Source of the DNA: a virus
Length of the DNA: 64,000 bases
Strand: one strand, 5' to 3'
IMG/VR virus record: IMGVR_UViG_3300032092_000005
Span: 32,001 to 96,000 of that record
Numbering within the stretch: position 1 is the stretch's first letter; each line of letters begins with the position of its first letter. The translations under genes and the position numbers were made by a program. A model generated the notes under the pieces. It saw only the letters and a list, made by a program, of their open reading frames with translations, was not told the origin of the DNA and made no database searches. Shown one piece after another: positions 3,527 through 27,305 of the stretch.

Positions 3527-3589
3527 TGTGACTTAAAAACAACACTTCTTAAAAAAAGTGTTGACAACCAAGAAGATGCATGTTATCAT
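3527..3589 (+). promoter_or_regulatory. tRNA operon promoter with TGTGA-N8-CAACA box
   Basis: box 3527-3544; TTGACA 3561-3566; TG-N-TATCAT 3584-3589. Confidence 0.75.
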
Positions 3590-4477: not shown

Positions 4478-4552
4478 GTGCCTTTAGTAAAATGGATATT
4501 ACACAACGCTACGAACGTTGGAGTGGGAGTTCGATTCTCTCAGGGCGCACCA
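4478..4552 (+). tRNA. tRNA-Arg(ACG)
   Basis: cloverleaf, CT-ACG-AA loop. Confidence 0.92.
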
Positions 4553-4562
4553 AGAGATATAT

Positions 4563-4654
4563 GGAAGATGATGCAGCGGGGTTGGTCCTGCGACTGGCCT
4601 TGAAAACCAGGTTCTCAGAAATGGGATGGGGTTCGACTCCTCCGTCTTCCGCCA
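4563..4654 (+). tRNA. tRNA-Ser(TGA), 8/4 cloverleaf
   Basis: 8-bp acceptor GGAAGATG/CGTCTTCC, 4-bp T-stem, long V-arm, G73. Confidence 0.85.
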
Positions 4655-4655
4655 G

Positions 4656-4684
4656 TTGACAATGAAGCTTGATTGTGATACAAT
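4656..4684 (+). promoter_or_regulatory. sigma70-type promoter for small-RNA/DUF2828 unit, inside an inverted repeat
   Basis: TTGACA-17-TACAAT; CAATGAAGCT...AGCTTCATTG. Confidence 0.75.
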
Positions 4685-4703
4685 AGCTTCATTGTAGAGT
4701 TTT

Positions 4704-4866
4704 AGGATAGGTACAGCAACCCACTAATACCGAATCGTTTAGTCACTGTGGTAAAAAACTGGAGTACGGAGTCTTGACCGAGTACGTTGAAGGTTTGACA
4801 CTGAAACATACTAAGCAAGGAGAGTTTCGATTTTCTCTCTGTAAACAAAAAGTAGACAACTATCCT
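4704..4866 (+). ncRNA. Y-RNA-like small RNA, copy 1
   Basis: AGGATAG-GTACAGCAA...CTATCCT-GTT terminal stem. Confidence 0.7.
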
Positions 4867-4884
4867 GTTATATTTGAAAGTTTT

Positions 4885-5014
4885 AGGATCGGTACAGCAA
4901 CATTAATCTTTACTAAAAGATGGTTCGAGCTAGTTTAAGGCAATAACACCCTTATTTCTTGAACCCACGTGAGTTTCGAATTCTCACTCGAAAGAAAAAG
5001 TAGAAACCGATCCT
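4885..5014 (+). ncRNA. Y-RNA-like small RNA, copy 2
   Basis: AGGATCGG-TACAGCAA...CCGATCCT-GTT. Confidence 0.7.
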
Positions 5015-5024
5015 GTTGTATTTT

Positions 5025-5146
5025 AGGTTAAGTTCCGCAAAACAAAATATGCAAACATAAACCGAAAGTCTGGTTCGATTCCAGCTAGGGCACGTAGTGT
5101 CTTAGTAGTGTAATGGCAGCACATTGGTACGCAAAAAGTTTAACCT
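5025..5146 (+). ncRNA. YrlA-like RNA with circularly permuted tRNA domain, copy 3
   Basis: AGGTTAAG-TTCCGCAA...TTTAACCT; T-arm, loop-closed acceptor and D-arm in permuted order. Confidence 0.75.
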
Positions 5147-5167
5147 GTTGATTTGAAAGGAAATATT

Positions 5168-6607
5168 ATGTCAACATTTGTAGAAGCCGTAGTAAACCAA
5201 GAAGCCCGTACTGCCAATGGCATGAAGGCACGTAAGTCCACTGCTAATGCGGTTGTAGATTTATTCTACAATGCAGGTGCAAGCCGTGGTAAGAATATTG
5301 TTCCTGCATTCGCAGCAGCATTTGCGCAAGACCGTGATCTAGCATTGCGCGTAGCCGCCTGGTTGCGTGATGTGCGTAGCGGTGCAGGTGAACGTCAATT
5401 GTTCCGTGATATCTTAGGGTATCTGGAAAACAATGATCGTGTAGCAGCAAAGGCACTTGTTGCAAAGGTTCCTGAATTGGGACGTTGGGATGACTTGTTC
5501 ATCTTCAATTCTAAGGAAATGAAGGAAGCAGCATACACATTGCTTGGTGACGCATTGCGTGAAAAGAATGGCCTTGCAGCTAAGTGGACACCTCGTCAAG
5601 GCAAGCTTGCAGCAGAAATTCGTACATTCTTCGGAATGTCGCCAAAGTTCTACCGCAAGTCTCTAGTTGAAATGACTAACGTTGTTGAAACTAACATGTG
5701 TGCAAAGGACTGGGACGGGATTAACTTCTCGCATGTTCCATCTGTAGCAGCATCGCGGTACAAGAAGGCATTCAACCGTAACACTCCAGCTTATGCAGCA
5801 TACGTTGCAGAGTTGATGAAGGATCCAAAAGATCGTACAGTTGAAGTGAAGGTTAATGCTGGTGCAGTGTACCCATATGATGTACTGAAAGGTCGCATCT
5901 CTGGTTATGGTGTGTCGTTTGACAAGACAGAATTGGATCTGATCCAAAAGCAATGGGAAGCACTACCTAACTTTGTTGGGGATGCAAACATTCTGCCTTT
6001 GGTTGACGTTTCTGGTTCTATGACTTGTCCAGCAGGTGGATCAGGCTCAAAGTCTAAGCTGACTTGCCTGGAAGTTGCAGTCTCTCTGGGATTGTATCTT
6101 GCAGACAAGAACAAGGGTAAGTTCAAGGATACGTTCTTGACTTTTTCTAACAAGCCAGAGTTGATGACTTTGAAGGGCAACATCAATGAGAAGATCAGCC
6201 AAATGGTTTCTTCTGATTGGGGAATGACTACTGACTTGAATCGTGCGTTTGACAAAATCCTTAGTGTAGCAATTAAGGGCAATGTGCCAAACAGTGAAAT
6301 GCCAGAAATGTTGCTGATCCTTTCGGACATGCAATTCAATTCTTGTGTTGCACATGACGATTCGGCTATCGAAATGATGGCACGTAAGTACGAAGCAGCA
6401 GGATACGCCTTACCAAAGGTTGTGTTCTGGAACTTGAATGCTGCATACGGCAATGCGCCTGTGAAGTTTGACAAGTCTGGCACTGCATTGGTTTCGGGGT
6501 TCTCTCCAGCCATTGTTAAGCCTCTGCTATCTGGCGACATGGAAGACTTTTCACCAGAGGCTGTGATGTTGAAGACAATCATGGATGACCGTTATACTGT
6601 GATTTAA
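5168..6607 (+). CDS. DUF2828-type Ro60/TROVE-like protein with C-terminal vWA domain
   Basis: RDVRSGAGER, PELGRWDDL, AKWTPR, MIDAS DVSGS, SDMQF, VFWNL, SGFSP motifs; AAAGGA SD. Confidence 0.85.
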   Translation: MSTFVEAVVNQEARTANGMKARKSTANAVVDLFYNAGASRGKNIVPAFAAAFAQDRDLALRVAAWLRDVRSGAGERQLFRDILGYLENNDRVAAKALVAKVPELGRWDDLFIFNSKEMKEAAYTLLGDALREKNGLAAKWTPRQGKLAAEIRTFFGMSPKFYRKSLVEMTNVVETNMCAKDWDGINFSHVPSVAASRYKKAFNRNTPAYAAYVAELMKDPKDRTVEVKVNAGAVYPYDVLKGRISGYGVSFDKTELDLIQKQWEALPNFVGDANILPLVDVSGSMTCPAGGSGSKSKLTCLEVAVSLGLYLADKNKGKFKDTFLTFSNKPELMTLKGNINEKISQMVSSDWGMTTDLNRAFDKILSVAIKGNVPNSEMPEMLLILSDMQFNSCVAHDDSAIEMMARKYEAAGYALPKVVFWNLNAAYGNAPVKFDKSGTALVSGFSPAIVKPLLSGDMEDFSPEAVMLKTIMDDRYTVI

Positions 6608-6687
6608 AAATCTAAGTATAACTCCGAGGATTCGAAAGAGTCCTCATTTTGAAGTGTGCTGATAGTGCATTTCAAAATGAAAAATAA

Positions 6688-6775
6688 GGAAGACTCCCAT
6701 AATGGTATTGGAGCGGCTTGCTAAGCCGTCGGTCGTTAAATCGGCTTCGGGGTTCGAGTCCCCGGTCTTCCGCCA
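6688..6775 (+). tRNA. tRNA-Ser(GCT)
   Basis: TT-GCT-AA loop, long V-arm, G73. Confidence 0.9.
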
Positions 6776-6850
6776 TACACAATGTACGCTATAATGTACA
6801 TTAACAGTGGTTTTTGTTCATAATGGGCGTTTTTATGCCTCTTATGACAG

Positions 6851-6911
6851 TGTTGTATTTTTGCAACAGACACAAAAAAAGTGTTGACAAATCTTCTGAT
6901 CCTGTTATACT
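6851..6911 (+). promoter_or_regulatory. second tRNA operon promoter with TGTTG-N8-CAACA box
   Basis: box 6851-6868; TTGACA 6884; TATACT 6906. Confidence 0.8.
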
Positions 6912-6943
6912 AGATTCTGTTGAGTTGATAGTGATTCAACAAA

Positions 6944-6956
6944 AGTTCTTTAAAAA
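6944..6956 (+). promoter_or_regulatory. boxA-like element
   Basis: AGTTCTTTAAAAA between promoter and tRNA-Glu. Confidence 0.6.
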
Positions 6957-6972
6957 GTTAAGTGTGATTTTT

Positions 6973-7047
6973 GCTCAGTTCGACTATCGGTCAGGTCGCT
7001 AGACTTTCAATCTGGAAAGACGGGTTCGACTCCCGTACTGAGCACCA
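6973..7047 (+). tRNA. tRNA-Glu(TTC)
   Basis: cloverleaf, CT-TTC-AA loop. Confidence 0.9.
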
Positions 7048-7158
7048 TATTAAAGCATATTTCAGGTTGGGCTAGATTCGCGGTTTAGCTATTTGGGTAT
7101 CATGGACTAGGTAATTACTAGCACCGGTACTAAGATACGAAATGTGTTTTAATATGGT
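7044..7158 (+). ncRNA. CCA-anchored stem element, copy C
   Basis: ACCATATTAAAGCATATTTC...GAAATGTGTTTTAATATGGT with multi-hairpin insert. Confidence 0.6.
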
Positions 7159-7163
7159 AGTTT

Positions 7164-7240
7164 GCCCTGGTGACGGAATTGGTATACGTACTGGTCTTAG
7201 AAACCAGGTTTTGCGAGTTCGAGTCTCGCCTAGGGCACCA
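7164..7240 (+). tRNA. tRNA-Leu(TAG), short variable loop
   Basis: CT-TAG-AA loop; V-region only GTTTT. Confidence 0.88.
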
Positions 7241-7252
7241 AAAGTATTTTAT

Positions 7253-7329
7253 GCGTCTGTAATTCAATTGGACAGAAATTCAGTCTTCGAAACTGAAAGT
7301 TGGGAGTTCGAATCTCTCTAGACGCACCA
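7253..7329 (+). tRNA. tRNA-Arg(TCG)
   Basis: CT-TCG-AA loop. Confidence 0.9.
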
Positions 7330-7426
7330 AATTAAAACATACTGCTTGCCTGACTGCAAAAGTCGTGGTAAACTACAAGAGAAAGAGGTTCGAATCCTCG
7401 GGACTGGTAGTGTGTTTTAATTTGGG
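7326..7426 (+). ncRNA. CCA-anchored stem element, copy D (contains a T-arm)
   Basis: ACCAAATTAAAACATACTGC...GTAGTGTGTTTTAATTTGGG; internal GAGG-TTCGAAT-CCTC. Confidence 0.6.
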
Positions 7427-7498
7427 CTGATGGTATAATTGGGAACACAGTGGCCTTGCAAGTCACAGTTGGGGGTTCGATTCCCCCTCGGTCCACCA
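7424..7498 (+). tRNA. tRNA-Ala(TGC)
   Basis: G3:U70, CT-TGC-AA loop. Confidence 0.92.
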
Positions 7499-7500
7499 AA

Positions 7501-7690
7501 TCTCGTTACTACTTTCGTTAAAGTAGCGTTTGATTAGCGATAGAGATCCGGTGGCAGAAAACCGTTAGCGAGGTCAAACTCAGGCTCTGATAGGCAGAAT
7601 CTCAACTGCACACAGACACACAGAATAAATGGAGATGGACAGAGTAACTGCTCAATTAAGGGCTGGCGTAGAACCCAGTAGCTTATCCTA
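7501..7690 (+). ncRNA. unidentified structured RNA
   Basis: several stems and a possible pseudoknot between tRNA-Ala and tRNA-Asp. Confidence 0.45.
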
Positions 7691-7695
7691 TTTAA

Positions 7696-7770
7696 GGCTC
7701 GTTCATATAATGGTCATTATCGCGGATTGTCTATCCGTAGATGGGAGTTCGATTCTCCCACGAGTCGCCA
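7696..7770 (+). tRNA. tRNA-Asp(GTC)
   Basis: TT-GTC-TA loop, G73. Confidence 0.9.
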
Positions 7771-7778
7771 GTTTTAAT

Positions 7779-7852
7779 CCTCCGTTAGCTCAATGGTAGA
7801 GCAATCGGCTGATAACCGATAGACAGAAGTTCAATTCTTCTACAGAGGACCA
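7779..7852 (+). tRNA. tRNA-Ile(GAT)
   Basis: CT-GAT-AA loop. Confidence 0.9.
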
Positions 7853-7863
7853 AAAAGTATTTC

Positions 7864-7947
7864 GGAGTGAATGGAACAATGGTGTTCTAGCCGGCTGTAA
7901 CCCGGTGGCCTTCGGGCAGGTAGGTTCGATCCCTACTCACTCCACCA
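7864..7947 (+). tRNA. tRNA-Tyr(GTA)
   Basis: CT-GTA-AC loop, V-arm. Confidence 0.88.
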
Positions 7948-7953
7948 GATTTT

Positions 7954-8013
7954 AGAATGCGTTCAGCAAAAAAATACATTGAACTTTTAATTCAAACCGT
8001 AAAAAAGCATTCT
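7954..8013 (+). ncRNA. Y-RNA-like small RNA, copy 4 (tRNA-Lys anticodon stem-loop cargo)
   Basis: AGAATGC-GTTCAGCAA...GCATTCT-GTT; internal TTGAA-CTTTTAA-TTCAA. Confidence 0.7.
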
Positions 8014-8038
8014 GTTGTTTACATATATAATACGTTGT

Positions 8039-8114
8039 GTACGTGTGCGCCGAACGGCTAGGTAGCGGATTGCAAATCCGTATAATGCAGGTTCGAATCC
8101 TGTCACGTACTCCA
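8039..8114 (+). tRNA. tRNA-Cys(GCA)
   Basis: TT-GCA-AA loop, U73. Confidence 0.9.
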
Positions 8115-8128
8115 CACAAAAGATTTAT

Positions 8129-8207
8129 TCCGTAGAACCCGAGCATGGTGCATGGGCTTGACTGTTAATCAATGTTTAGCTGGGATCGTTACCCAGATAC
8201 GGAGCCA
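8129..8207 (+). tRNA. tRNA-Asn(GTT), atypical T-loop
   Basis: CT-GTT-AA loop; T-loop ATCGTTA. Confidence 0.78.
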
Positions 8208-8217
8208 AAAGTTATAT

Positions 8218-8293
8218 TGCGGGTAGTGCCCAGTCAACAGTCCAGTCTCATAAGCTCGGATCATCGGAGGTGCGAATCCTTCACCCGCAACCA
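8218..8293 (+). tRNA. tRNA-Met(CAT), initiator-like, atypical
   Basis: TGCGGGT/ACCCGCA-A-CCA acceptor, CT-CAT-AA loop, bulged anticodon stem. Confidence 0.7.
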
Positions 8294-8298
8294 GTTTT

Positions 8299-8353
8299 AG
8301 GATCAGTTCAGCAAACTTAAAAATTTCTCTTGTTCGGAAAAAAAGTTGATCCT
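8299..8353 (+). ncRNA. Y-RNA-like small RNA, copy 5
   Basis: AGGATCAG-TTCAGCAA...TTGATCCT-GTT. Confidence 0.7.
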
Positions 8354-8363
8354 GTTGTTTTTC

Positions 8364-8437
8364 GCCCTATTAGTATAATGGTATTACACCTGTTTTGTAA
8401 TCAGGTTACGGCAGTTCGATTCTGTCATGGGGCACCA
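8364..8437 (+). tRNA. tRNA-Thr(TGT)
   Basis: TT-TGT-AA loop. Confidence 0.9.
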
Positions 8438-8447
8438 AGTCATTTTT

Positions 8448-8521
8448 GCGGGGTTCATTTAATGGTAGGATTTCAGCCTTCCAAGCTGATAGTGCGAGTT
8501 CGATTCTCGCACCCCGCTCCA
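8448..8521 (+). tRNA. tRNA-Gly(TCC)
   Basis: CT-TCC-AA loop, U73. Confidence 0.92.
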
Positions 8522-8528
8522 ATATTTT

Positions 8529-8602
8529 CTCGGTGTGGTGAAATGGTATCACTCTTGGTTTGGGACCAAGGAGCGCAAGTTCGATTCTTGCCACCGAGAC
8601 CA
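8529..8602 (+). tRNA. tRNA-Pro(TGG)
   Basis: TT-TGG-GA loop. Confidence 0.92.
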
Positions 8603-8610
8603 CAAGTTTT

Positions 8611-8670
8611 AGGATAGTTACAGCAAAAAACAAAGCTAACTATTGGTTGTCTAGCGACAAAAGCTATCCT
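8611..8670 (+). ncRNA. Y-RNA-like small RNA, copy 6
   Basis: AGGATAGT-TACAGCAA...GCTATCCT-GTT. Confidence 0.7.
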
Positions 8671-8688
8671 GTTGTTTAATGAGGCTAT

Positions 8689-12761: not shown

Positions 12762-13781
12762 ATGAGAAAATTAGCTACTATTCGAAAGATTGATGCATTG
12801 AATCCTATTGAGGGTGCTGATGCTATTGAATGCGCAACCGTAGGTGGTTGGAAAGTTGTTGTTAAGAAAGGTGAATACAATGTAGGAGACCGTGTTGTCT
12901 ACTGCGAGATTGACTCATGGATTCCTACTGAGTTAGCACCATTCCTATCAAAGGGAAAAGAACCTCGAGAATTCGAAGGCATCAAAGGTGAACGTCTTCG
13001 TACCATCAAGCTGCGCGGTCAGTTGTCACAAGGTTTGCTGTTGCCGTGGACTGTAGGAGGCGGCGTGCTGGACATGGCGCAGATGTTTGCAGGCGAAGGC
13101 GATGATGTATCGGAACTGCTTGGTATTGTGAAGTGGGAAATGCCCATGAATGCACAACTTGCGGGCATGGCACGTGGTAACTTTCCATCTGCAATTCCTA
13201 AGACTGACCAAGAACGTGCGCAAAATCTTGTTGGAGAAATTCTTGCTGCTGCACAAGCTGGTACTCAATTTGAGATTACCGAAAAGCTTGAAGGCTCTTC
13301 AATGACTTGCTACTTGATTGATGGAGAATTTGGTGTTTGCTCACGTAACCTCGACTTGAAGGAAACTGAAGGCAATGCATTCTGGCAAGTTGCGCGGCGT
13401 GATGACATTGAGGCAAAAATGCGTATCGGCCGAAATTTTGCTATTCAAGGCGAGTTGATTGGTCCTGGCATTCAAGGTAATATCTACAAACTACGTGAAC
13501 CAGAGTTCCGTGTGTTTGATGTATACAATATTCAAGGTGGTTGCTATTTGGATCCAGCTGACCGGCGTGAGTTGATTGAGAGCATGGGACTGAAACATGT
13601 TCCTGTTATGTACGTTGACAAGGATCTTGGTGTTGGCTCTGTAGAAGAAATTCTGCAATGGGCTGAAGGTGCATCAAAGCTGAACGAAAAGCAAGAACGT
13701 GAAGGTATCGTATTTAAGGAAGTGAATGGCGGTATGTCATTCAAGGCTATTTCAAATAAGTATCTGCTAGGAGAAAAGTAA
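12762..13781 (+). CDS. RNA ligase, DRB0094 family
   Basis: N-terminal RKLATIRKI..IEGADAIE OB domain; motif I EKLEGSS; QGELIGPGIQ; EGIVFK; FKAISNKY. Confidence 0.88.
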   Translation: MRKLATIRKIDALNPIEGADAIECATVGGWKVVVKKGEYNVGDRVVYCEIDSWIPTELAPFLSKGKEPREFEGIKGERLRTIKLRGQLSQGLLLPWTVGGGVLDMAQMFAGEGDDVSELLGIVKWEMPMNAQLAGMARGNFPSAIPKTDQERAQNLVGEILAAAQAGTQFEITEKLEGSSMTCYLIDGEFGVCSRNLDLKETEGNAFWQVARRDDIEAKMRIGRNFAIQGELIGPGIQGNIYKLREPEFRVFDVYNIQGGCYLDPADRRELIESMGLKHVPVMYVDKDLGVGSVEEILQWAEGASKLNEKQEREGIVFKEVNGGMSFKAISNKYLLGEK

Positions 13782-24754: not shown

Positions 24755-25393
24755 ATGTACAACATCATTACATCTGTCGGAAGACTAAAGAATATTCCAC
24801 TAATCAAGAACCACATTGAGCCACATAACATTAAGTGGCATGTGATTACTGATGAAGACATTGGATTTAGTTTAAAATTCATTGAGCCATGGATATCGAA
24901 TTATGTATGTCCAAATGATCGAGTAGCATTTTGGGCGAGGTGTCATGGCGCATTAAATTGGTTTATTGAAACTCAAGAAATCAATGATGATGAAATGTAT
25001 TGCTTCATGAATGATGATGATGGTTATGAGTCGGACTTCTTTTCTAAAGTTACTAATGTTATTTCGGAAGTAAAGTCTACTCATAGCGTTGACGTTGATG
25101 TAGTTATTGTCAGTATGAAAAGAGGAGATGCAACTCCCCACGATGCTGGTCCAGGTAGAGGTCACGGCACTAGTACGCTTTTTGCGCATCCTGATAATAT
25201 GAGAATTGGTAGTGTTGGACTTGAACAGATTGTTGTTAGAGGTAGAGTATTGAAAAACTATAGACTTGGTATGCATATTGCTGGTGATGGAGAAATGATC
25301 AGTAGAATCACTCAAGAGAATCCTGTCGCGTATGCGCAAGATGTATATGCATTATTTAATTATTTTGAACCTGGACGTTGGAGTAAAGTATGA
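24755..25393 (+). CDS. GT-A-like glycosyltransferase
   Basis: hydrophobic strand followed by NDDD motif; cluster context. Confidence 0.55.
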   Translation: MYNIITSVGRLKNIPLIKNHIEPHNIKWHVITDEDIGFSLKFIEPWISNYVCPNDRVAFWARCHGALNWFIETQEINDDEMYCFMNDDDGYESDFFSKVTNVISEVKSTHSVDVDVVIVSMKRGDATPHDAGPGRGHGTSTLFAHPDNMRIGSVGLEQIVVRGRVLKNYRLGMHIAGDGEMISRITQENPVAYAQDVYALFNYFEPGRWSKV

Positions 25394-26361
25394 ACGGATT
25401 ATTCATTAACACTATAAAAGCTAGTTGTAGCATCTATAGCAGTGGACTAATGCTGCATCAATATCTTCAATCTTCTGAATGGAATTTAGACTATGTAGAG
25501 GTTGATAAACTGTCGGTCAATGATCTACATGAGGGAAAAATTGTTTCTGATAACTTATCTGAAGCTTATGATTTCTATATTTTTAACTATCATCCTTGGA
25601 CTATGCGACAAATGGCAGGAGTTGATGCATCACGACTATCAAAACTTCCTGGTAAAAAATATTCTATCATATTAGAAATGAATAAGAATGATGCATTCCC
25701 CAGTCACATAGGCATGAACAGATCAGGATTCGATGGATGCTTAATTATCGATCCGACATTTAAATCGGATGATCCAAAGCTTCATGCATTTCCTAGACCA
25801 ATTATAAATTGCTTACCTATGAAGAAGATAGAAGTTATTCCTGAAATTCCTATGATAGGTAGTTTTGGTTATGCAACAATAGACAAGAATTTTGAATTGA
25901 TTGTTCAACAAGCTTCTAAAGAATTCGAAAAAGCAATTGTAAGAATAAATTTACCAGTAGCACACTATGTTCCTAATGATGAATTTAATAAGATTAAGTT
26001 TGATTGTGAAAAGTATGTACGCCCCGGAATTGAATTGAGACTTACTAGAGATTACATGAGTGATAGTGACTTGGTCCAATGGTGTGGAGAAAATGATTTA
26101 AATTGTTTCATGTATAATAGAAATCTTACTGGTCTAGCAGCAACGCCAGATCAGAGTATAGCTTCAGGTGCGCCATTAGCAGTATCGGATAACACTACAT
26201 TTAGGCACTTGCATGACTACATTCGTCCATTCCCTGAGTGGACATTTAAAGACTCTATGTTAAAAAGTCAAGATGGAATTGCTAGAATGAGAGAAGCGTG
26301 GAGTAGTGAAGCTTGCGTTAACAGATTTAAAGAAATACATTTTAGCGGAGAAAATAAATGA
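25390..26361 (+). CDS. putative GT-B-like glycosyltransferase
   Basis: IGSFG...K; paralogous to next gene; context. Confidence 0.5.
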   Translation: MNGLFINTIKASCSIYSSGLMLHQYLQSSEWNLDYVEVDKLSVNDLHEGKIVSDNLSEAYDFYIFNYHPWTMRQMAGVDASRLSKLPGKKYSIILEMNKNDAFPSHIGMNRSGFDGCLIIDPTFKSDDPKLHAFPRPIINCLPMKKIEVIPEIPMIGSFGYATIDKNFELIVQQASKEFEKAIVRINLPVAHYVPNDEFNKIKFDCEKYVRPGIELRLTRDYMSDSDLVQWCGENDLNCFMYNRNLTGLAATPDQSIASGAPLAVSDNTTFRHLHDYIRPFPEWTFKDSMLKSQDGIARMREAWSSEACVNRFKEIHFSGENK

Positions 26362-27305
26362 AACAGATTGCGCTAGTTAGTGGACCAGTACAAGCATGTG
26401 GTATTTTTTATTGGGGTAGTAATGTATATGATATATTAAAGAACAGCGAGAAGTATAAATTTTATTTTGTAACTGCATCAAGCTATCAAGAATTCTTAGC
26501 AAAGACACATGATGCCGATTTAATTATCTATAATTGGCATTATGTAACTATGCCATGGTGTACGACAGAAGTTTTTACGAATACTCTAAAACCCCAATTT
26601 TTAATTCATGGCCACACATTAAATTCGGAACTAATTGATTTCACTGGCATAGATGAATTCATTACCGTAGATCCGTCAATGAATTATGGACTTAAAAACT
26701 TTCATTCTGGTTATAGACCTATTGCATATTATGATGATATCGTGTATAATAAACCCAACAGCGTATTAAAGATAGGAACTAGTGGCGTAGGTCATGATGG
26801 CAAGAACATAAATTCGATGCTAAATTTGATCAACGAGCAGTTTGATGAACCAGTCATATTCAATATTCATTGGAGCTTAGGTGACTATGCTGGAGGCACT
26901 GCCGCCGGACTAGAACAGAAGTTGAATGCATTGAAATCATTAGCAAAGCCTAACGTAGAATTAAATTTTACTATAAAACGACTGTCGGAATATGATAACG
27001 TAAAATGGCTCAACAATAATGATATCAATCTATACATGTATAATAATTATGATTGTGATGGTGTAAGTGCTAGTGTAGATAAAGCATTAGCAGCAAAGAA
27101 GCCCATCGGCGTAAACACTACAGGATATTTTAGACACATCATATCAGACGAAATTAACATAGATAAAACACCCATTAAAAACATTATCAATAGTGGAATA
27201 GCTCCAATAGAAAAATATTATAATATGTGGAACCCTAAAACATTTTTAAAACAATACGAAGATATCTTTGATGAATTCTTCAAACGAGACTATGTTAAAA
27301 TTTGA
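26358..27305 (+). CDS. putative GT-B-like glycosyltransferase
   Basis: CGI; IGTSG..K; G.S...D.ALA..KP. Confidence 0.5.
   Translation: MKQIALVSGPVQACGIFYWGSNVYDILKNSEKYKFYFVTASSYQEFLAKTHDADLIIYNWHYVTMPWCTTEVFTNTLKPQFLIHGHTLNSELIDFTGIDEFITVDPSMNYGLKNFHSGYRPIAYYDDIVYNKPNSVLKIGTSGVGHDGKNINSMLNLINEQFDEPVIFNIHWSLGDYAGGTAAGLEQKLNALKSLAKPNVELNFTIKRLSEYDNVKWLNNNDINLYMYNNYDCDGVSASVDKALAAKKPIGVNTTGYFRHIISDEINIDKTPIKNIINSGIAPIEKYYNMWNPKTFLKQYEDIFDEFFKRDYVKI

What the first reader, a model, noticed from the sequence alone, without database searches (positions are those of the whole stretch)
4656..8673. DUF2828 (Ro60-like) protein with six modular Y-like RNAs: one common handle, different cargo
Seen: six elements (4704-4866, 4885-5014, 5025-5146, 7954-8013, 8299-8353, 8611-8670) share the layout TTTT-AG[stem]-TWCMGCAA...A-rich linker-[stem']CT-GTT. 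The stems covary: AGGATAG/CTATCCT, AGGATCGG/CCGATCCT, AGGTTAAG/TTTAACCT, AGAATGC/GCATTCT, AGGATCAG/TTGATCCT, AGGATAGT/GCTATCCT. Interiors differ widely in length and sequence. Three copies lie between a dedicated promoter (4656-4684) and the DUF2828 gene (5168-6607); three are interleaved with tRNAs. Known: Ro60/Rsr (TROVE plus vWA with a DxSxS MIDAS) binds a 5'/3' terminal stem of Y RNAs encoded next to it, and the other RNA domain acts as effector module. Inference: this divergent Ro-like protein binds a distinct RNA handle that does not look like the classic Y-RNA helix and displays interchangeable cargo. It could be a phage RNP for tRNA decoying, repair or counter-defence.
Basis: partly seen in the sequence, partly recalled or inferred. 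Interest (0 to 1): 0.92.

Follow-up and report, generated by a model that had tools for sequence, protein, structure and literature searches.

The report
Phage Ro60-like protein, six partner RNAs
A large uncultured phage encodes a ring-shaped protein that folds like the RNA-surveillance protein Ro60, plus six small RNAs that share one conserved "handle" but carry different tRNA-like pieces. The same pairing recurs in very different phages, and I found no paper or RNA catalogue that describes it.

Summary
Six elements at the stated coordinates share TTTAG-stem-TNCNGCAA ... A-run-stem'-CTGTT. There are six exact matches against 0.01 expected, all on the + strand, and none elsewhere in the 152-kb genome.

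- **RNA structure.** The terminal helix (8 pairs including a U·G) covaries heavily in 57 relatives and is almost never broken.
- **Protein.** The protein (5168-6607; Pfam DUF2828 + DUF7788) models at pLDDT 93. Its best ten structural matches are all Ro60/Rsr (Z 21.1, 403 residues). No Pfam TROVE match appears.
- **Association.** A covariance model of the handle finds the RNA beside this gene, on its strand, in phages of Synechococcus, Aeromonas, Ralstonia, Listeria and Vibrio. Variant handles are visible by eye in Felix O1-type phages and mycobacteriophages. T4 and T5 have tRNA arrays but neither the gene nor the RNA.
- **Cargo.** Element 3 carries T arm, acceptor-like stem and D arm in the order of bacterial YrlA Y RNAs. 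Element 4 carries a 5-bp stem with a 7-nt anticodon-type loop.
- **Catalogues.** No Rfam family reaches threshold. The only recurrent sub-threshold match is to Dictyostelium Class I RNA.

Binding and function are untested. I favour a Ro60/Y-RNA-type particle that displays tRNA mimics. This scan has reported the same pairing before on other DNA.

The parts
4656..4684 (+). Near-consensus sigma-70 promoter (TTGACA, 17 nt, TACAAT, with TG extension) that heads elements 1-3 and the DUF2828 gene
   Evidence: 11 of 12 positions match. It is one of five such promoters that head the RNA clusters.
4700..4869 (+). Element 1 (core 4704-4866). Handle AGGATAG/CTATCCT plus GTACAGCAA. The long interior ends in a T-arm-like hairpin GAGAG-TTTCGATTT-TCTCTC followed by CAAAAAGTAGACAA.
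   Evidence: Family alignment A4 shows a conserved hairpin with covarying stem (pairs 155-160 with 175-180). R1 finds only its 5' part (15.4 bits).
4881..5017 (+). Element 2 (core 4885-5014). Handle AGGATCGG/CCGATCCT plus TACAGCAA. It has the same 3' module as element 1 (GTGAG-TTTCGAATT-CTCAC, then AAAAAGTAGAAA).
   Evidence: MFE -35 kcal/mol, z -3.2; R1 38.7 bits, E 3.4e-6.
5021..5149 (+). Element 3 (core 5025-5146). Handle AGGTTAAG/TTTAACCT plus TTCCGCAA. The interior is T arm (CTGG-TTCGATT-CCAG), acceptor-like stem closed by a loop, then D arm (GTGTAATGGCAGCAC), which is the YrlA-type order. It ends 19 nt before the ATG of the gene.
   Evidence: in 14 orthologues the T, acceptor-like and D stems all show double-sided changes, and the T and D loops are invariant. 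R1 38.9 bits, E 3e-6. It is always the last unit before the gene in relatives.
5168..6607 (+). Gene for the Ro60-fold protein (479 aa): an N-terminal helical-repeat ring (DUF2828) plus a vWA domain (DUF7788) with a complete MIDAS motif (D280, S282, S284, T355, D387)
   Evidence: Pfam. PHROG 850 'RNA-binding protein'. Model pLDDT 93. Foldseek top 12 hits are all Ro60. Z 21.1, rmsd 3.7 A, 403 residues aligned to 1yvr. Invariant MIDAS residues.
6626..6678 (+). Two strong hairpins directly after the stop codon. They could be a terminator, a processing site or a stability element that ends the gene's unit.
   Evidence: -27.3 kcal/mol against -9.9 for shuffles, z -6.8. Their role is not tested.
6884..6911 (+). 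Near-consensus sigma-70 promoter that heads the tRNA array holding elements 4-6
   Evidence: 11 of 12 positions match, with TG extension.
7950..8016 (+). Element 4 (core 7954-8013). Handle AGAATGC/GCATTCT plus GTTCAGCAA. The interior is a 5-bp stem (TTGAA/TTCAA) with the 7-nt loop CTTTTAA, an anticodon-loop signature with UUU in the anticodon position.
   Evidence: R1 74.6 bits, E 9e-15. In 24 sequences the inner helix is 98% paired, with double-sided changes at 4 of 5 pairs.
8295..8356 (+). Element 5 (core 8299-8353). Handle AGGATCAG/TTGATCCT plus TTCAGCAA. The interior is a 5-bp stem (TTTCT/GGAAA) with the 7-nt loop CTTGTTC, which is anticodon-like but has pyrimidines at positions 37-38.
   Evidence: R1 64.9 bits. 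Inner hairpin predicted on alignment A6. Rfam Dicty_Class_I_RNA 21.7 bits over the full model.
8607..8673 (+). Element 6 (core 8611-8670). Handle AGGATAGT/GCTATCCT plus TACAGCAA. The interior belongs to a conserved subtype (AGCTAA...TTGGTTGTCTAGCGACAAAA) whose internal pairing is not resolved.
   Evidence: R1 64.0 bits. Subtype alignment A7 leaves two competing pairings: GCTA/TAGC or TGTC-TAGC-GACA.
12762..13781 (+). RNA ligase gene (PF09414 plus PHA02142 OB fold), 4 kb beyond the array. It is context and a possible functional partner, not shown to belong.
   Evidence: RNA ligases also lie within 3-6 kb downstream of the DUF2828 gene in Listeria phage LMTA-94 (RtcB and an RNA ligase) and in Aeromonas phage LAh_6 (Rnl2).

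Best explanation
The six elements are the partner RNAs of the DUF2828 protein. Together they form a phage version of the Ro60/Y-RNA particle.

**Shown here**
- The protein has the Ro60 fold: a helical-repeat ring plus a vWA domain with a MIDAS site.
- The RNAs are structured on the + strand. They share a terminal helix (U·G, A-U, G-C, then 5-6 free pairs), a single-stranded UWCMGCAA motif on the 5' side, an A-rich 3' strand and a CUGU(U) tail.
- Gene and RNA travel together across very distant phages.
- The interiors are interchangeable, and several copy parts of tRNA.

**Inferred**
- The protein binds the handle, as Ro60 binds the terminal helix and 5'-strand motif of Y RNAs, and leaves the interior exposed.
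- The RNAs are made from two strong promoters as parts of the gene's leader and of a tRNA operon, then cut out by the tRNA-processing enzymes.
- The exposed tRNA mimics include a T/acceptor/D body like YrlA, an anticodon-stem-loop look-alike and other hairpins. They engage proteins that recognise tRNA.
- The most likely purpose is to protect or service the phage's translation during infection. The particle could soak up or tether host tRNA-cleaving nucleases, or bring broken tRNAs to repair enzymes such as the RNA ligase encoded 4 kb downstream.
For: **The RNAs are real**
- Six exact matches against 0.01 expected.
- The terminal helix is kept through double-sided changes at five pairs in 57 sequences. 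A conserved U·G pair would be a C·A mismatch on the other strand.
- On 24 sequences the full structure is 97% paired against 79% in shuffles and at most 39% when partners are slid. The covariation score is 0.525 against 0.164, and 0 of 500 shuffles reach it.
- About 220 copies occur in 80 related loci, all on the gene's strand and mostly within 500 nt upstream of the gene.

**The protein is Ro60-like**
- Model pLDDT is 93.
- The top ten structural matches are all Ro60, Rsr or Thermus phage Ro60. The best has Z 21.1 over 403 residues, while the next matches are vWA-only at Z about 10.
- The MIDAS residues are invariant.

**Gene and RNA are linked**
- Model R1 hits beside the gene, on its strand, in phages of Synechococcus, Ralstonia, Aeromonas and Listeria when their whole genomes are searched.
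- KVP40 has both gene and RNA. T4 and T5 have tRNA arrays but neither.
- Of 34 viral contigs of at least 40 kb chosen only by the handle pattern, 25 encode DUF2828. The baseline is 711 of 50,697 phage records.
- Variant handles are visible by eye in a Felix O1-type phage and downstream of the 'Ro-like' gene of mycobacteriophage Gabriela.

**The cargo mimics tRNA**
- Element 3 has covariation-supported T, acceptor-like and D arms in YrlA order (PMC4201824).
- The equivalent mycobacteriophage RNA is matched by Rfam YrlA model positions 30-81.
- Most short relatives carry a 5-bp stem with a 7-nt loop of the form Y-U-NNN-A-A.

**Outside support**
- In Listeria phage CKA15 the homologous protein was found in virions. 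Three promoter-driven non-coding regions within 2 kb upstream are very highly transcribed, and the authors guessed at Y RNAs (PMC12282133).
- A Thermus phage Ro60 binds two upstream Y-like RNAs in vitro (PMC12135203).
Against: - No binding, expression or processing data exist for this phage.
- The protein has no detectable Pfam TROVE match. Its profile reaches Ro60 sequences only at E 0.13-0.24, so common descent with Ro60 rests on fold.
- Rfam YrlA does not hit any of the six elements, even at E up to 10.
- Only one of the three short elements here (element 4) has a canonical anticodon-loop signature. Element 5 deviates at positions 37-38, and element 6 has an unresolved interior.
- The anticodon-loop reading was made by eye on an AU-rich sequence. 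I could not test it statistically because the script machine was lost.
- The co-occurrence counts are not phylogenetically independent.
- One complete 125-kb contig has the handle pattern but no DUF2828.
- The most transcribed CKA15 region (26,236-26,727) maps about 700 nt upstream of the handle RNAs, not onto them.
- RNA ligases near the gene may only reflect general clustering of early genes.
Confidence: 0.68

Rival explanations
1. It is the same particle but with a different job. As in Deinococcus RYPER and the Thermus phage phiLo complex, the RNAs tether the ring protein to a host exoribonuclease such as PNPase, either to redirect or to damp RNA decay. The tRNA-like parts would serve only as docking surfaces.
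For: The phiLo Ro60 with Yrl1/Yrl2 binds host PNPase and attenuates it (PMC12135203). YrlA is found in a complex with Rsr and PNPase (PMC4201824). The fold match is to the same proteins.
Against: This does not explain why one phage keeps six or more different cargoes, nor why orthologous units differ mainly in the three loop positions that correspond to an anticodon. No PNPase-binding module can be recognised with these tools.
Confidence: 0.15
2. The handles are operator sites for the protein on its own mRNA, giving translational autoregulation. The copies in the tRNA array act as competitors that set the level of free protein, and the RNAs have no effector role.
For: Three handles sit in the gene's leader, and the last ends 19 nt before the ATG, just ahead of the ribosome-binding site. 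This position is conserved in relatives.
Against: In KVP40, Ralstonia RSP15 and the mycobacteriophage, the RNAs lie kilobases away from the gene or downstream of it. The conserved, covarying tRNA-like interiors would be unnecessary for an operator.
Confidence: 0.08
3. The elements are processing or spacer modules of phage tRNA operons. They would be sites for RNase E, RNase III or RNase P, or stabilisers of the precursor, and would have no functional tie to the DUF2828 protein.
For: Elements 4-6 abut tRNA 3' ends and lie inside a tRNA operon. The DUF2828 gene itself usually sits in or next to tRNA arrays, so linkage could be indirect.
Against: T4 and T5 have tRNA arrays but no such RNA. Aeromonas phage LAh_6 and mycobacteriophage Gabriela have the RNAs next to the gene without a large tRNA array there. 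Of the contigs selected by the RNA alone, 74% carry the gene.
Confidence: 0.07
4. The elements are small mobile or recombinogenic DNA repeats with terminal inverted repeats, not RNAs.
For: Each unit is bounded by short inverted repeats, and the units are multiplied within genomes.
Against: All of about 220 copies are on one strand. A conserved U·G pair and further G·U pairs work only in RNA of that strand. Stems change by compensatory substitutions while an unpaired motif stays fixed. No target-site duplications or transposase genes were seen.
Confidence: 0.02

Closest known systems
Ro60 (Rsr) with Y RNAs, especially bacterial and mycobacteriophage YrlA (Rfam RF02553; Chen et al. 2014, PMC4201824) and the Thermus phage phiLo Ro60 with Yrl1/Yrl2 (PMC12135203)
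   Same: The protein has the same ring plus vWA/MIDAS fold (Z 21.1). The RNAs are encoded on the same strand within a few kb of the gene, several per genome. The 5' and 3' ends pair, and a conserved motif lies on the 5' strand just inside the helix. Element 3 has the YrlA order of T arm, acceptor-like stem and D arm. Short partner RNAs without a tRNA-like body also exist, as YrlB does.
   Different: No Pfam TROVE match is found, and identity to Ro60 is 12-19%. The motif is UWCMGCAA, not GNCGAAN0-1G or CGAA. An A-run and a CUGU tail are conserved. Rfam YrlA does not detect any of the six RNAs. There are many more units per genome. Some interiors look like anticodon stem-loops, which YrlA lacks. 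The units are embedded in phage tRNA operons.
Dictyostelium Class I RNAs (Rfam RF01414; Kjellin et al. 2021, PMC7919456)
   Same: Both are about 55-65 nt long. Both have a short 5'/3' stem kept by compensatory changes. An ACAGCAA-type motif lies directly after the 5' strand, with C6, C9, A10 and A11 of the 11-nt motif conserved in both. The interior is variable and ends in an A-run. The termini are AG...CUGU. It is the only non-tRNA Rfam model that repeatedly lands exactly on handle elements: 21.7 bits here and 25.7-33.2 bits on six elements in relatives, always over the full model and on the right strand.
   Different: All scores are below Rfam's gathering score of 41.5. Class I RNAs are eukaryotic, have their own DUSE promoter, and are reported as unique to dictyostelids. 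Their one confirmed direct protein partner is the RRM protein Rnp1A. I could not test here whether dictyostelids encode a DUF2828 protein that binds them. Long phage units (elements 1-3) have no Class I counterpart.
Stable RNAs of unknown function in phage tRNA clusters (T4 species 1 and 2 RNAs; T5 RNAI, RNAIII, RNA1)
   Same: They are small stable non-coding RNAs co-transcribed and processed with phage tRNAs. Some are tRNA-like.
   Different: T4 and T5 lack DUF2828 and give no match to the handle model, so they are a different family.

Membership tests
Ro60 / Rsr (TROVE + vWA) proteins | Ring of helical (HEAT-like) repeats followed by a vWA domain, superposable on solved Ro60 structures | tested here: met
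   Model pLDDT 93. Match to 1yvr: Z 21.1, rmsd 3.7 A, 403 of 479 residues (model residues 9-458). The ten best chains are all Ro60, Rsr or phiLo Ro60, and the next matches are vWA-only at Z about 10.
Ro60 / Rsr (TROVE + vWA) proteins | Sequence match to the Pfam TROVE domain (PF05731) | tested here: not met
   hmmscan at E up to 1 lists only PF25043, PF11443 and a chance hit. The family profile reaches Ro60 chains only at E 0.13-0.24, through the MIDAS segment.
Ro60 / Rsr (TROVE + vWA) proteins | MIDAS motif DxSxS...T...D in the vWA domain | tested here: met
   D280, S282, S284, T355 and D387 are invariant in 62 sequences that share 40-58% identity with the window's protein.
Ro60 / Rsr (TROVE + vWA) proteins | Binds Y RNAs on the outer ring surface and single-stranded RNA ends in the cavity | not testable with these tools
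   Needs EMSA, RIP-seq or a structure of the complex.
YrlA Y RNAs (Rfam RF02553) | Covariance-model score at or above gathering (69 bits) | tested here: not met
   No YrlA match on any of the six elements at E up to 10. The only YrlA row in the region overlaps two tRNAs. The mycobacteriophage counterpart reaches 21.4 bits for model positions 30-81 only.
YrlA Y RNAs (Rfam RF02553) | Layout: 5' motif, T stem-loop, acceptor-like stem-loop, D stem-loop, 3' end pairing with the 5' end | tested here: met
   Met for element 3 only. Alignment A3 of 14 orthologues shows double-sided changes in all three stems and invariant GGTTCGATTCC and TAATGG loops. The order is as described in PMC4201824.
YrlA Y RNAs (Rfam RF02553) | GNCGAAN0-1G motif near the 5' end | tested here: not met
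   All six elements have T-W-C-M-GCAA instead.
YrlA Y RNAs (Rfam RF02553) | Encoded within about 4 kb of the Ro60 gene on the same strand | tested here: met
   The elements lie 19-470 nt upstream and 1.3-2.1 kb downstream of the gene, all on the + strand.
Dictyostelium Class I RNAs (Rfam RF01414) | Covariance-model score at or above gathering (41.5 bits) | tested here: not met
   Element 5 scores 21.7 bits (E 0.2 in 736 nt), and elements 4 and 6 are not reported. Relatives score 25.7-33.2 bits. The authors of the family used 25 bits or more as the entry score for model building (PMC7919456).
Dictyostelium Class I RNAs (Rfam RF01414) | Short stem joining the 5' and 3' ends, kept by compensatory changes; a conserved motif ending in CAGCAA next to the 5' strand; termini AG...CUGU; about 60 nt long | tested here: met
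   Met for elements 4-6. Features as listed in PMC7919456. Elements 1-3 are 122-163 nt long and fail the length criterion.
Dictyostelium Class I RNAs (Rfam RF01414) | DUSE promoter about 60 nt upstream; dictyostelid host | tested here: not met
   The elements sit in bacterial-type sigma-70 transcription units in a phage.

The most novel reading that the evidence does not exclude
The RNAs are a panel of tRNA-part decoys or adaptors mounted on a Ro60-like ring. The anticodon-loop look-alikes in the family (UUU, UCU, UGU, GUA, GUC, GUU and others) would capture or misdirect host anticodon nucleases used as anti-phage defences. Alternatively they would guide the nearby RNA ligase to broken tRNAs. 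The protein may be carried in the virion so that it acts from the first minutes of infection. A corollary is that the unexplained Class I RNAs of Dictyostelium are eukaryotic members of the same RNA family and partner with eukaryotic DUF2828 proteins.
Probability: 0.2. Interest if true: 0.92.

Novelty: new variant of a known kind. Interest (0 to 1): 0.8.

Why it matters
- **Scale.** Ro60/Y-RNA particles are known from animals, about 5% of bacteria and a few phages. DUF2828 proteins occur in at least 711 sequenced phages, including Felix O1-type phages, P100-like phages, staphylococcal and enterococcal myoviruses, KVP40 and mycobacteriophages. They are annotated at best as 'RNA-binding protein', with no known RNA.
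- **Immediate use.** Naming the partner RNA family gives these genes a testable function. It also explains unannotated, highly transcribed gaps in phage tRNA regions and provides a covariance model for annotation.
- **Biological reach.** The modular design of one handle with swappable tRNA-like cargo suggests a general way for phages to interfere with tRNA-directed host enzymes. This is topical because tRNA cleavage is a common anti-phage defence.
- **Wider link.** The resemblance to Dictyostelium Class I RNAs would, if real, overturn the view that those RNAs are unique to social amoebae and would point to their missing protein partner.

Tried and rejected
- **Rfam.** Searches at gathering thresholds and at E up to 10 over the region, over elements 1-3 alone, and over five related or distant loci gave no family at threshold on any handle element. 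The YrlA row at 7727-7829 spans two tRNAs and is spurious.
- **First pattern.** My first pattern had a wrong spacer and found nothing. It was corrected.
- **DNA similarity.** A search of the region against sequenced phages returned only tRNA-level matches, so no close cultured relative is on hand.
- **Sequence search of the PDB.** The single protein found nothing meaningful.
- **Scripts.** The script machine was lost. I could not compute sequence logos, mutual information between the CAGCAA motif and the 3' strand, or a chance expectation for anticodon-type loops.
- **Extra 2-bp pairing.** A proposed pairing of the GC of CAGCAA with a CGY before the A-run is 85% paired, but it varies on one side only, so it is neither supported nor excluded.
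- **Element 6.** Its interior remains ambiguous between two pairings.
- **CKA15 transcript peak.** The published peak at 26,236-26,727 maps to LMTA-94 locus 4487-4978, not to the handle RNAs at 5658-5928. It therefore cannot be cited as expression of these RNAs. Only the statement that all three upstream non-coding regions are highly transcribed applies.
- **Protein atlas.** The search returned only DUF2828 clusters from viruses and gave no information on eukaryotic members.
- **Literature.** Searches for DUF2828, Ro-like phage ncRNA, and Class I RNA together with Ro60 found no description of this RNA family.

Full report
**What the window is.** The window is bases 32,001-96,000 of a 152-kb IMG/VR virus record with an estimated completeness of 85%. 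It holds 25 tRNA genes in five clusters. Each cluster is headed by a near-consensus sigma-70 promoter with a TG extension, at 3561, 3841, 4656, 6884 and 10405. It also holds a permuted tmRNA. No close cultured relative was found by DNA similarity.

**The observation.** Chance expectation is 0.01. It occurs nowhere else in the genome. Each copy is closed downstream by the complement of its own stem, followed by CTGTT. Each is predicted to fold with that terminal helix. Elements 1-3 lie between the promoter at 4656-4684 and the ATG at 5168. Elements 4-6 follow directly after tRNA-Tyr, a tRNA-like RNA and tRNA-Pro in the operon that starts at 6884.

**Is it a structured RNA?** I fetched 80 loci from IMG/VR that encode a 67-90% identical protein. 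A script found about 220 further units with the same layout. All are on the gene's strand and none on the other. Most lie in the 500 nt before the gene.
- In an alignment of 57 short units, the helix is U·G, A-U, G-C plus five variable pairs. Each variable pair changes on both sides in 3-34 sequences and is never broken.
- The conserved U·G pair would be a C·A mismatch on the opposite strand, so the selection acts on + strand RNA.
- For 24 units of one subtype, including three from distant phages, I counted the full structure. It is 97.2% paired, against 79.1% in shuffles and at most 39% when partners are slid. The covariation score is 0.525 against 0.164, and 0 of 500 shuffles reach it.
- The six stems in this window all differ while the closing pairs are fixed. 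This fits selection for structure together with avoidance of cross-pairing between neighbouring units. That last point is inference.

**The protein.** The 479-residue product matches Pfam DUF2828 (PF11443) and DUF7788 (PF25043) but not TROVE. It also matches PHROG 850, labelled 'RNA-binding protein'.
- A model built on 62 diverse homologues has pLDDT 93 and pTM 0.92.
- Foldseek ranks twelve Ro60 structures first (Xenopus, human, Deinococcus Rsr, Thermus phage phiLo), aligned end to end.
- Re-alignment gives Z 21.1, rmsd 3.7 A and 403 aligned residues for 1yvr. All ten top rows are Ro60-type, and the next rows are vWA domains alone at Z about 10.
- The MIDAS residues D280, S282, S284, T355 and D387 are invariant.
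- At sequence level the family profile touches Ro60 only marginally, at E 0.13-0.24.

The protein therefore works like, and is shaped like, Ro60. It is not a member of the Pfam TROVE family by sequence. Homologues occur in 711 of 50,697 sequenced phages. These include Felix O1-type phages, Listeria P100-like phages, staphylococcal, enterococcal and Campylobacter phages, KVP40-like phages, and mycobacteriophages, where the protein is annotated 'Ro-like RNA binding protein'.

**Do gene and RNA go together?** I built a covariance model (R1) from the 57 short units.
- *Whole genomes of distant phages.* All significant hits are on the gene's strand (locus coordinates). In Synechococcus phage BUCT-ZZ01 they lie about 100 nt upstream of the gene and at two sites 6-9 kb upstream. 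In Ralstonia phage RSP15 there are four in the tRNA array around the gene. In Listeria phage LMTA-94 there are two or three in the 350 nt before the gene. In Aeromonas phage LAh_6 seven reach E 0.01, six within about 4.5 kb upstream of the gene and one 40 kb away.
- *Variant handles seen by eye.* In a Felix O1-type phage the model is too narrow, but four units of the form AGACC...CAGCAA...GGTCTGG are plain in the tRNA array next to the gene. One of them has T, acceptor-like and D arms. In mycobacteriophage Gabriela three units (TGG...TAACAGCAA...CCAGT) follow the gene. Rfam YrlA matches the tRNA-like core of the middle one at 21 bits.
- *Controls.* T4 and T5 have tRNA arrays and stable RNAs of unknown function, but no DUF2828 and no R1 hit. 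KVP40 has both.
- *Reverse test.* An exact handle pattern scanned over 2.9 million viral contigs gave more than 120 places. Of the 34 contigs of at least 40 kb, 25 encode DUF2828, and so do 5 of the 6 complete ones. The background among sequenced phages is 1.4%.

These counts are not phylogenetically independent. However, the span of hosts (Firmicutes, Actinobacteria, Cyanobacteria, Proteobacteria) makes hitch-hiking unlikely.

**The cargo.**
- *Element 3.* It and its 13 orthologues show, after the handle, a T arm with an invariant GGTTCGATTCC, a variable stem closed by a loop, and a D arm with an invariant TAATGG. Each stem is supported by double-sided changes. This is the order reported for YrlA, where the closed stem stands for the acceptor stem (PMC4201824). 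Even so, Rfam YrlA does not detect element 3.
- *Elements 1 and 2.* They belong to a second long type. It has a conserved, covarying hairpin (GTGAG-TTTCGAWTT-CTCAC, T-arm-like but with a 9-nt loop) and a conserved CAAAAAGTAGAAAAC tail.
- *Short units.* About 37 of the 57 have a 5-bp stem and a 7-nt loop of the form Y-U-NNN-A-A, the signature of an anticodon loop. Only the middle positions differ between otherwise near-identical orthologues, for example CTGTAAA, CTGTCAA, CTGTTAA and CTGAAAA on one stem. Element 4 here reads CTTTTAA. Element 5 reads CTTGTTC, which is off-pattern at the last two positions. Element 6 belongs to a third subtype whose interior I could not resolve.
- *Caveat.* The anticodon reading was made by eye. 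From my own knowledge, loops such as CUUUUAA, CUUGUAA, CUUCUAA and CUGUAAA equal those of bacterial tRNA-Lys, Thr, Arg and Tyr, several of which are targets of known anticodon nucleases. I did not test this.

**Comparison with what is known.** The closest system is Ro60/Rsr with Y RNAs. It shares the protein fold and the same-strand neighbourhood. It also shares the pairing of the RNA ends, with a conserved motif on the 5' strand. In both, the other RNA domain is free for effectors. The motif here (UWCMGCAA) differs from GNCGAAN0-1G or CGAA, although GUUCCGCAA in element 3 recalls the vertebrate GGUCCGA.

The closest catalogued RNA by model score is unexpected: Dictyostelium Class I RNA. Its consensus is a 6-bp stem, then CUUACAGCAA, a variable part, an A-run, the return strand of the stem and CUG. 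It aligns end to end with element 5 at 21.7 bits. It also aligns with six units in relatives at 25.7-33.2 bits, always exactly on a unit and on the right strand. All of these scores are below the gathering score of 41.5. The published features of Class I RNAs are a length of about 60 nt, a compensating terminal stem, an 11-nt motif with invariant C6, C9, A10 and A11, and ends AAG...CUGU (PMC7919456). They fit the short phage units. That paper concluded that the class is unique to dictyostelids. No paper in the library links Class I RNAs to Ro60.

**Published hints.** For the P100-like phage CKA15, the DUF2828 homologue was detected in purified virions with 57% coverage. Three promoter-driven non-coding regions within 2 kb upstream are among the most transcribed parts of the genome, and the authors speculated that they might be Y RNAs (PMC12282133).
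- By alignment, the handle units of this phage group lie at CKA15 positions about 25,290-25,560.
- In LMTA-94, three sigma-70-like promoters head three non-coding stretches upstream of the gene. The last of these holds the handle units.
- The region whose coordinates the paper gives (26,236-26,727) is a different stretch further upstream.

The Thermus phage work shows that a phage Ro60 binds upstream Y-like RNAs and host PNPase (PMC12135203).

**Mechanism.**
- *Shown:* the RNA structure, the protein fold and the gene-RNA linkage.
- *Inferred:* the protein binds the handle, the interiors are displayed, and the particle deals with tRNA-recognising proteins.

Three observations favour a role in the conflict over tRNAs:
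- The cargo consists of tRNA parts.
- The system sits in tRNA operons.
- RNA ligases are encoded nearby in this phage (12762-13778), in the Listeria phage (RtcB and a second ligase) and in the Aeromonas phage (Rnl2).

The alternatives are listed as rivals: tethering of an exonuclease, autoregulation of the gene through the leader handles, or plain processing modules.

**Novelty and prior notes.** I found no Rfam family or paper that describes this RNA family. Earlier notes of this scan report the same protein-RNA pairing on many other genomes, including the Class I resemblance and anticodon-like cargo. I reached the pairing, the fold and the cargo reading before opening those notes. I took the Class I lead from them and from my own sub-threshold Rfam row, then tested it. 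I class the finding as a new variant of a known kind: a second, widespread branch of Ro60/Y-RNA particles with its own handle.

Noticed in passing
window 22052-22477: A permuted (two-piece type) tmRNA gene in a phage genome: Rfam tmRNA_permuted 114.9 bits and beta_tmRNA 103.5 bits. The Synechococcus phage BUCT-ZZ01, whose DUF2828 protein is 46% identical, has one too (L089:1737-2137).
   Followed up: partly
window 4563-4650, 7333-7420, 8128-8213, 8218-8290: Four tRNA-like RNAs that ARAGORN did not call. The first matches the tRNA-Sec model at 35 bits. The second has a 14-bp closing helix plus a canonical T arm (z -4.6). The third has an acceptor stem, a CUGUUAA loop, an odd T loop and an encoded GCCA end. 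The fourth matches the tRNA model weakly (18 bits) and has a CAU loop. They may be non-canonical or decoy tRNAs.
   Followed up: partly
window 7048-7163: An unannotated 116-nt stretch between tRNA-Glu and tRNA-Leu folds into a long closed structure (-32.1 kcal/mol, z -3.5). It has no handle motif and no Rfam match.
   Followed up: partly
window 6626-6678: Two very stable hairpins lie directly after the DUF2828 stop codon (z -6.8). The second is followed by an A-rich run, not a T-run, so it is not a classic terminator.
   Followed up: no
window 12762-13781 and 16265-17233: An RNA ligase (PF09414 with PHA02142 OB fold) and a calcineurin-like phosphoesterase lie downstream of the tRNA arrays. Together they could form an RNA end-healing and sealing set.
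   Followed up: no
L091:4487-4978 (Listeria phage LMTA-94; equals CKA15 26,236-26,727): This roughly 500-nt non-coding region is reported as the most transcribed part of phage CKA15; together with the adjacent CKA15_060 it reaches about 67% of phage transcripts. It has its own consensus promoter, no handle motif and no Rfam family. A 'drum' RNA (RF02958, 50.2 bits) lies at L091:1685-1783.
   Followed up: partly
L092:6470-6720 (mycobacteriophage Gabriela): Three handle-type RNAs lie downstream of the 'Ro-like RNA binding protein' gene. Their handle is a GC-rich variant (TGG...TAACAGCAA...CCAGT) that model R1 misses, so a broader model is needed for surveys.
   Followed up: partly
L149 contig (IMGVR_UViG_3300042691_032880, 125 kb, complete): This contig carries an exact handle pattern but gives no DUF2828 match. 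It is either a chance match, a diverged protein or an orphan RNA.
   Followed up: no
L101 and L164 (IMG/VR GVMAG contigs): The exact handle pattern also occurs on contigs labelled as giant-virus metagenome bins, two adjacent copies in one case. The family may reach beyond phages.
   Followed up: no
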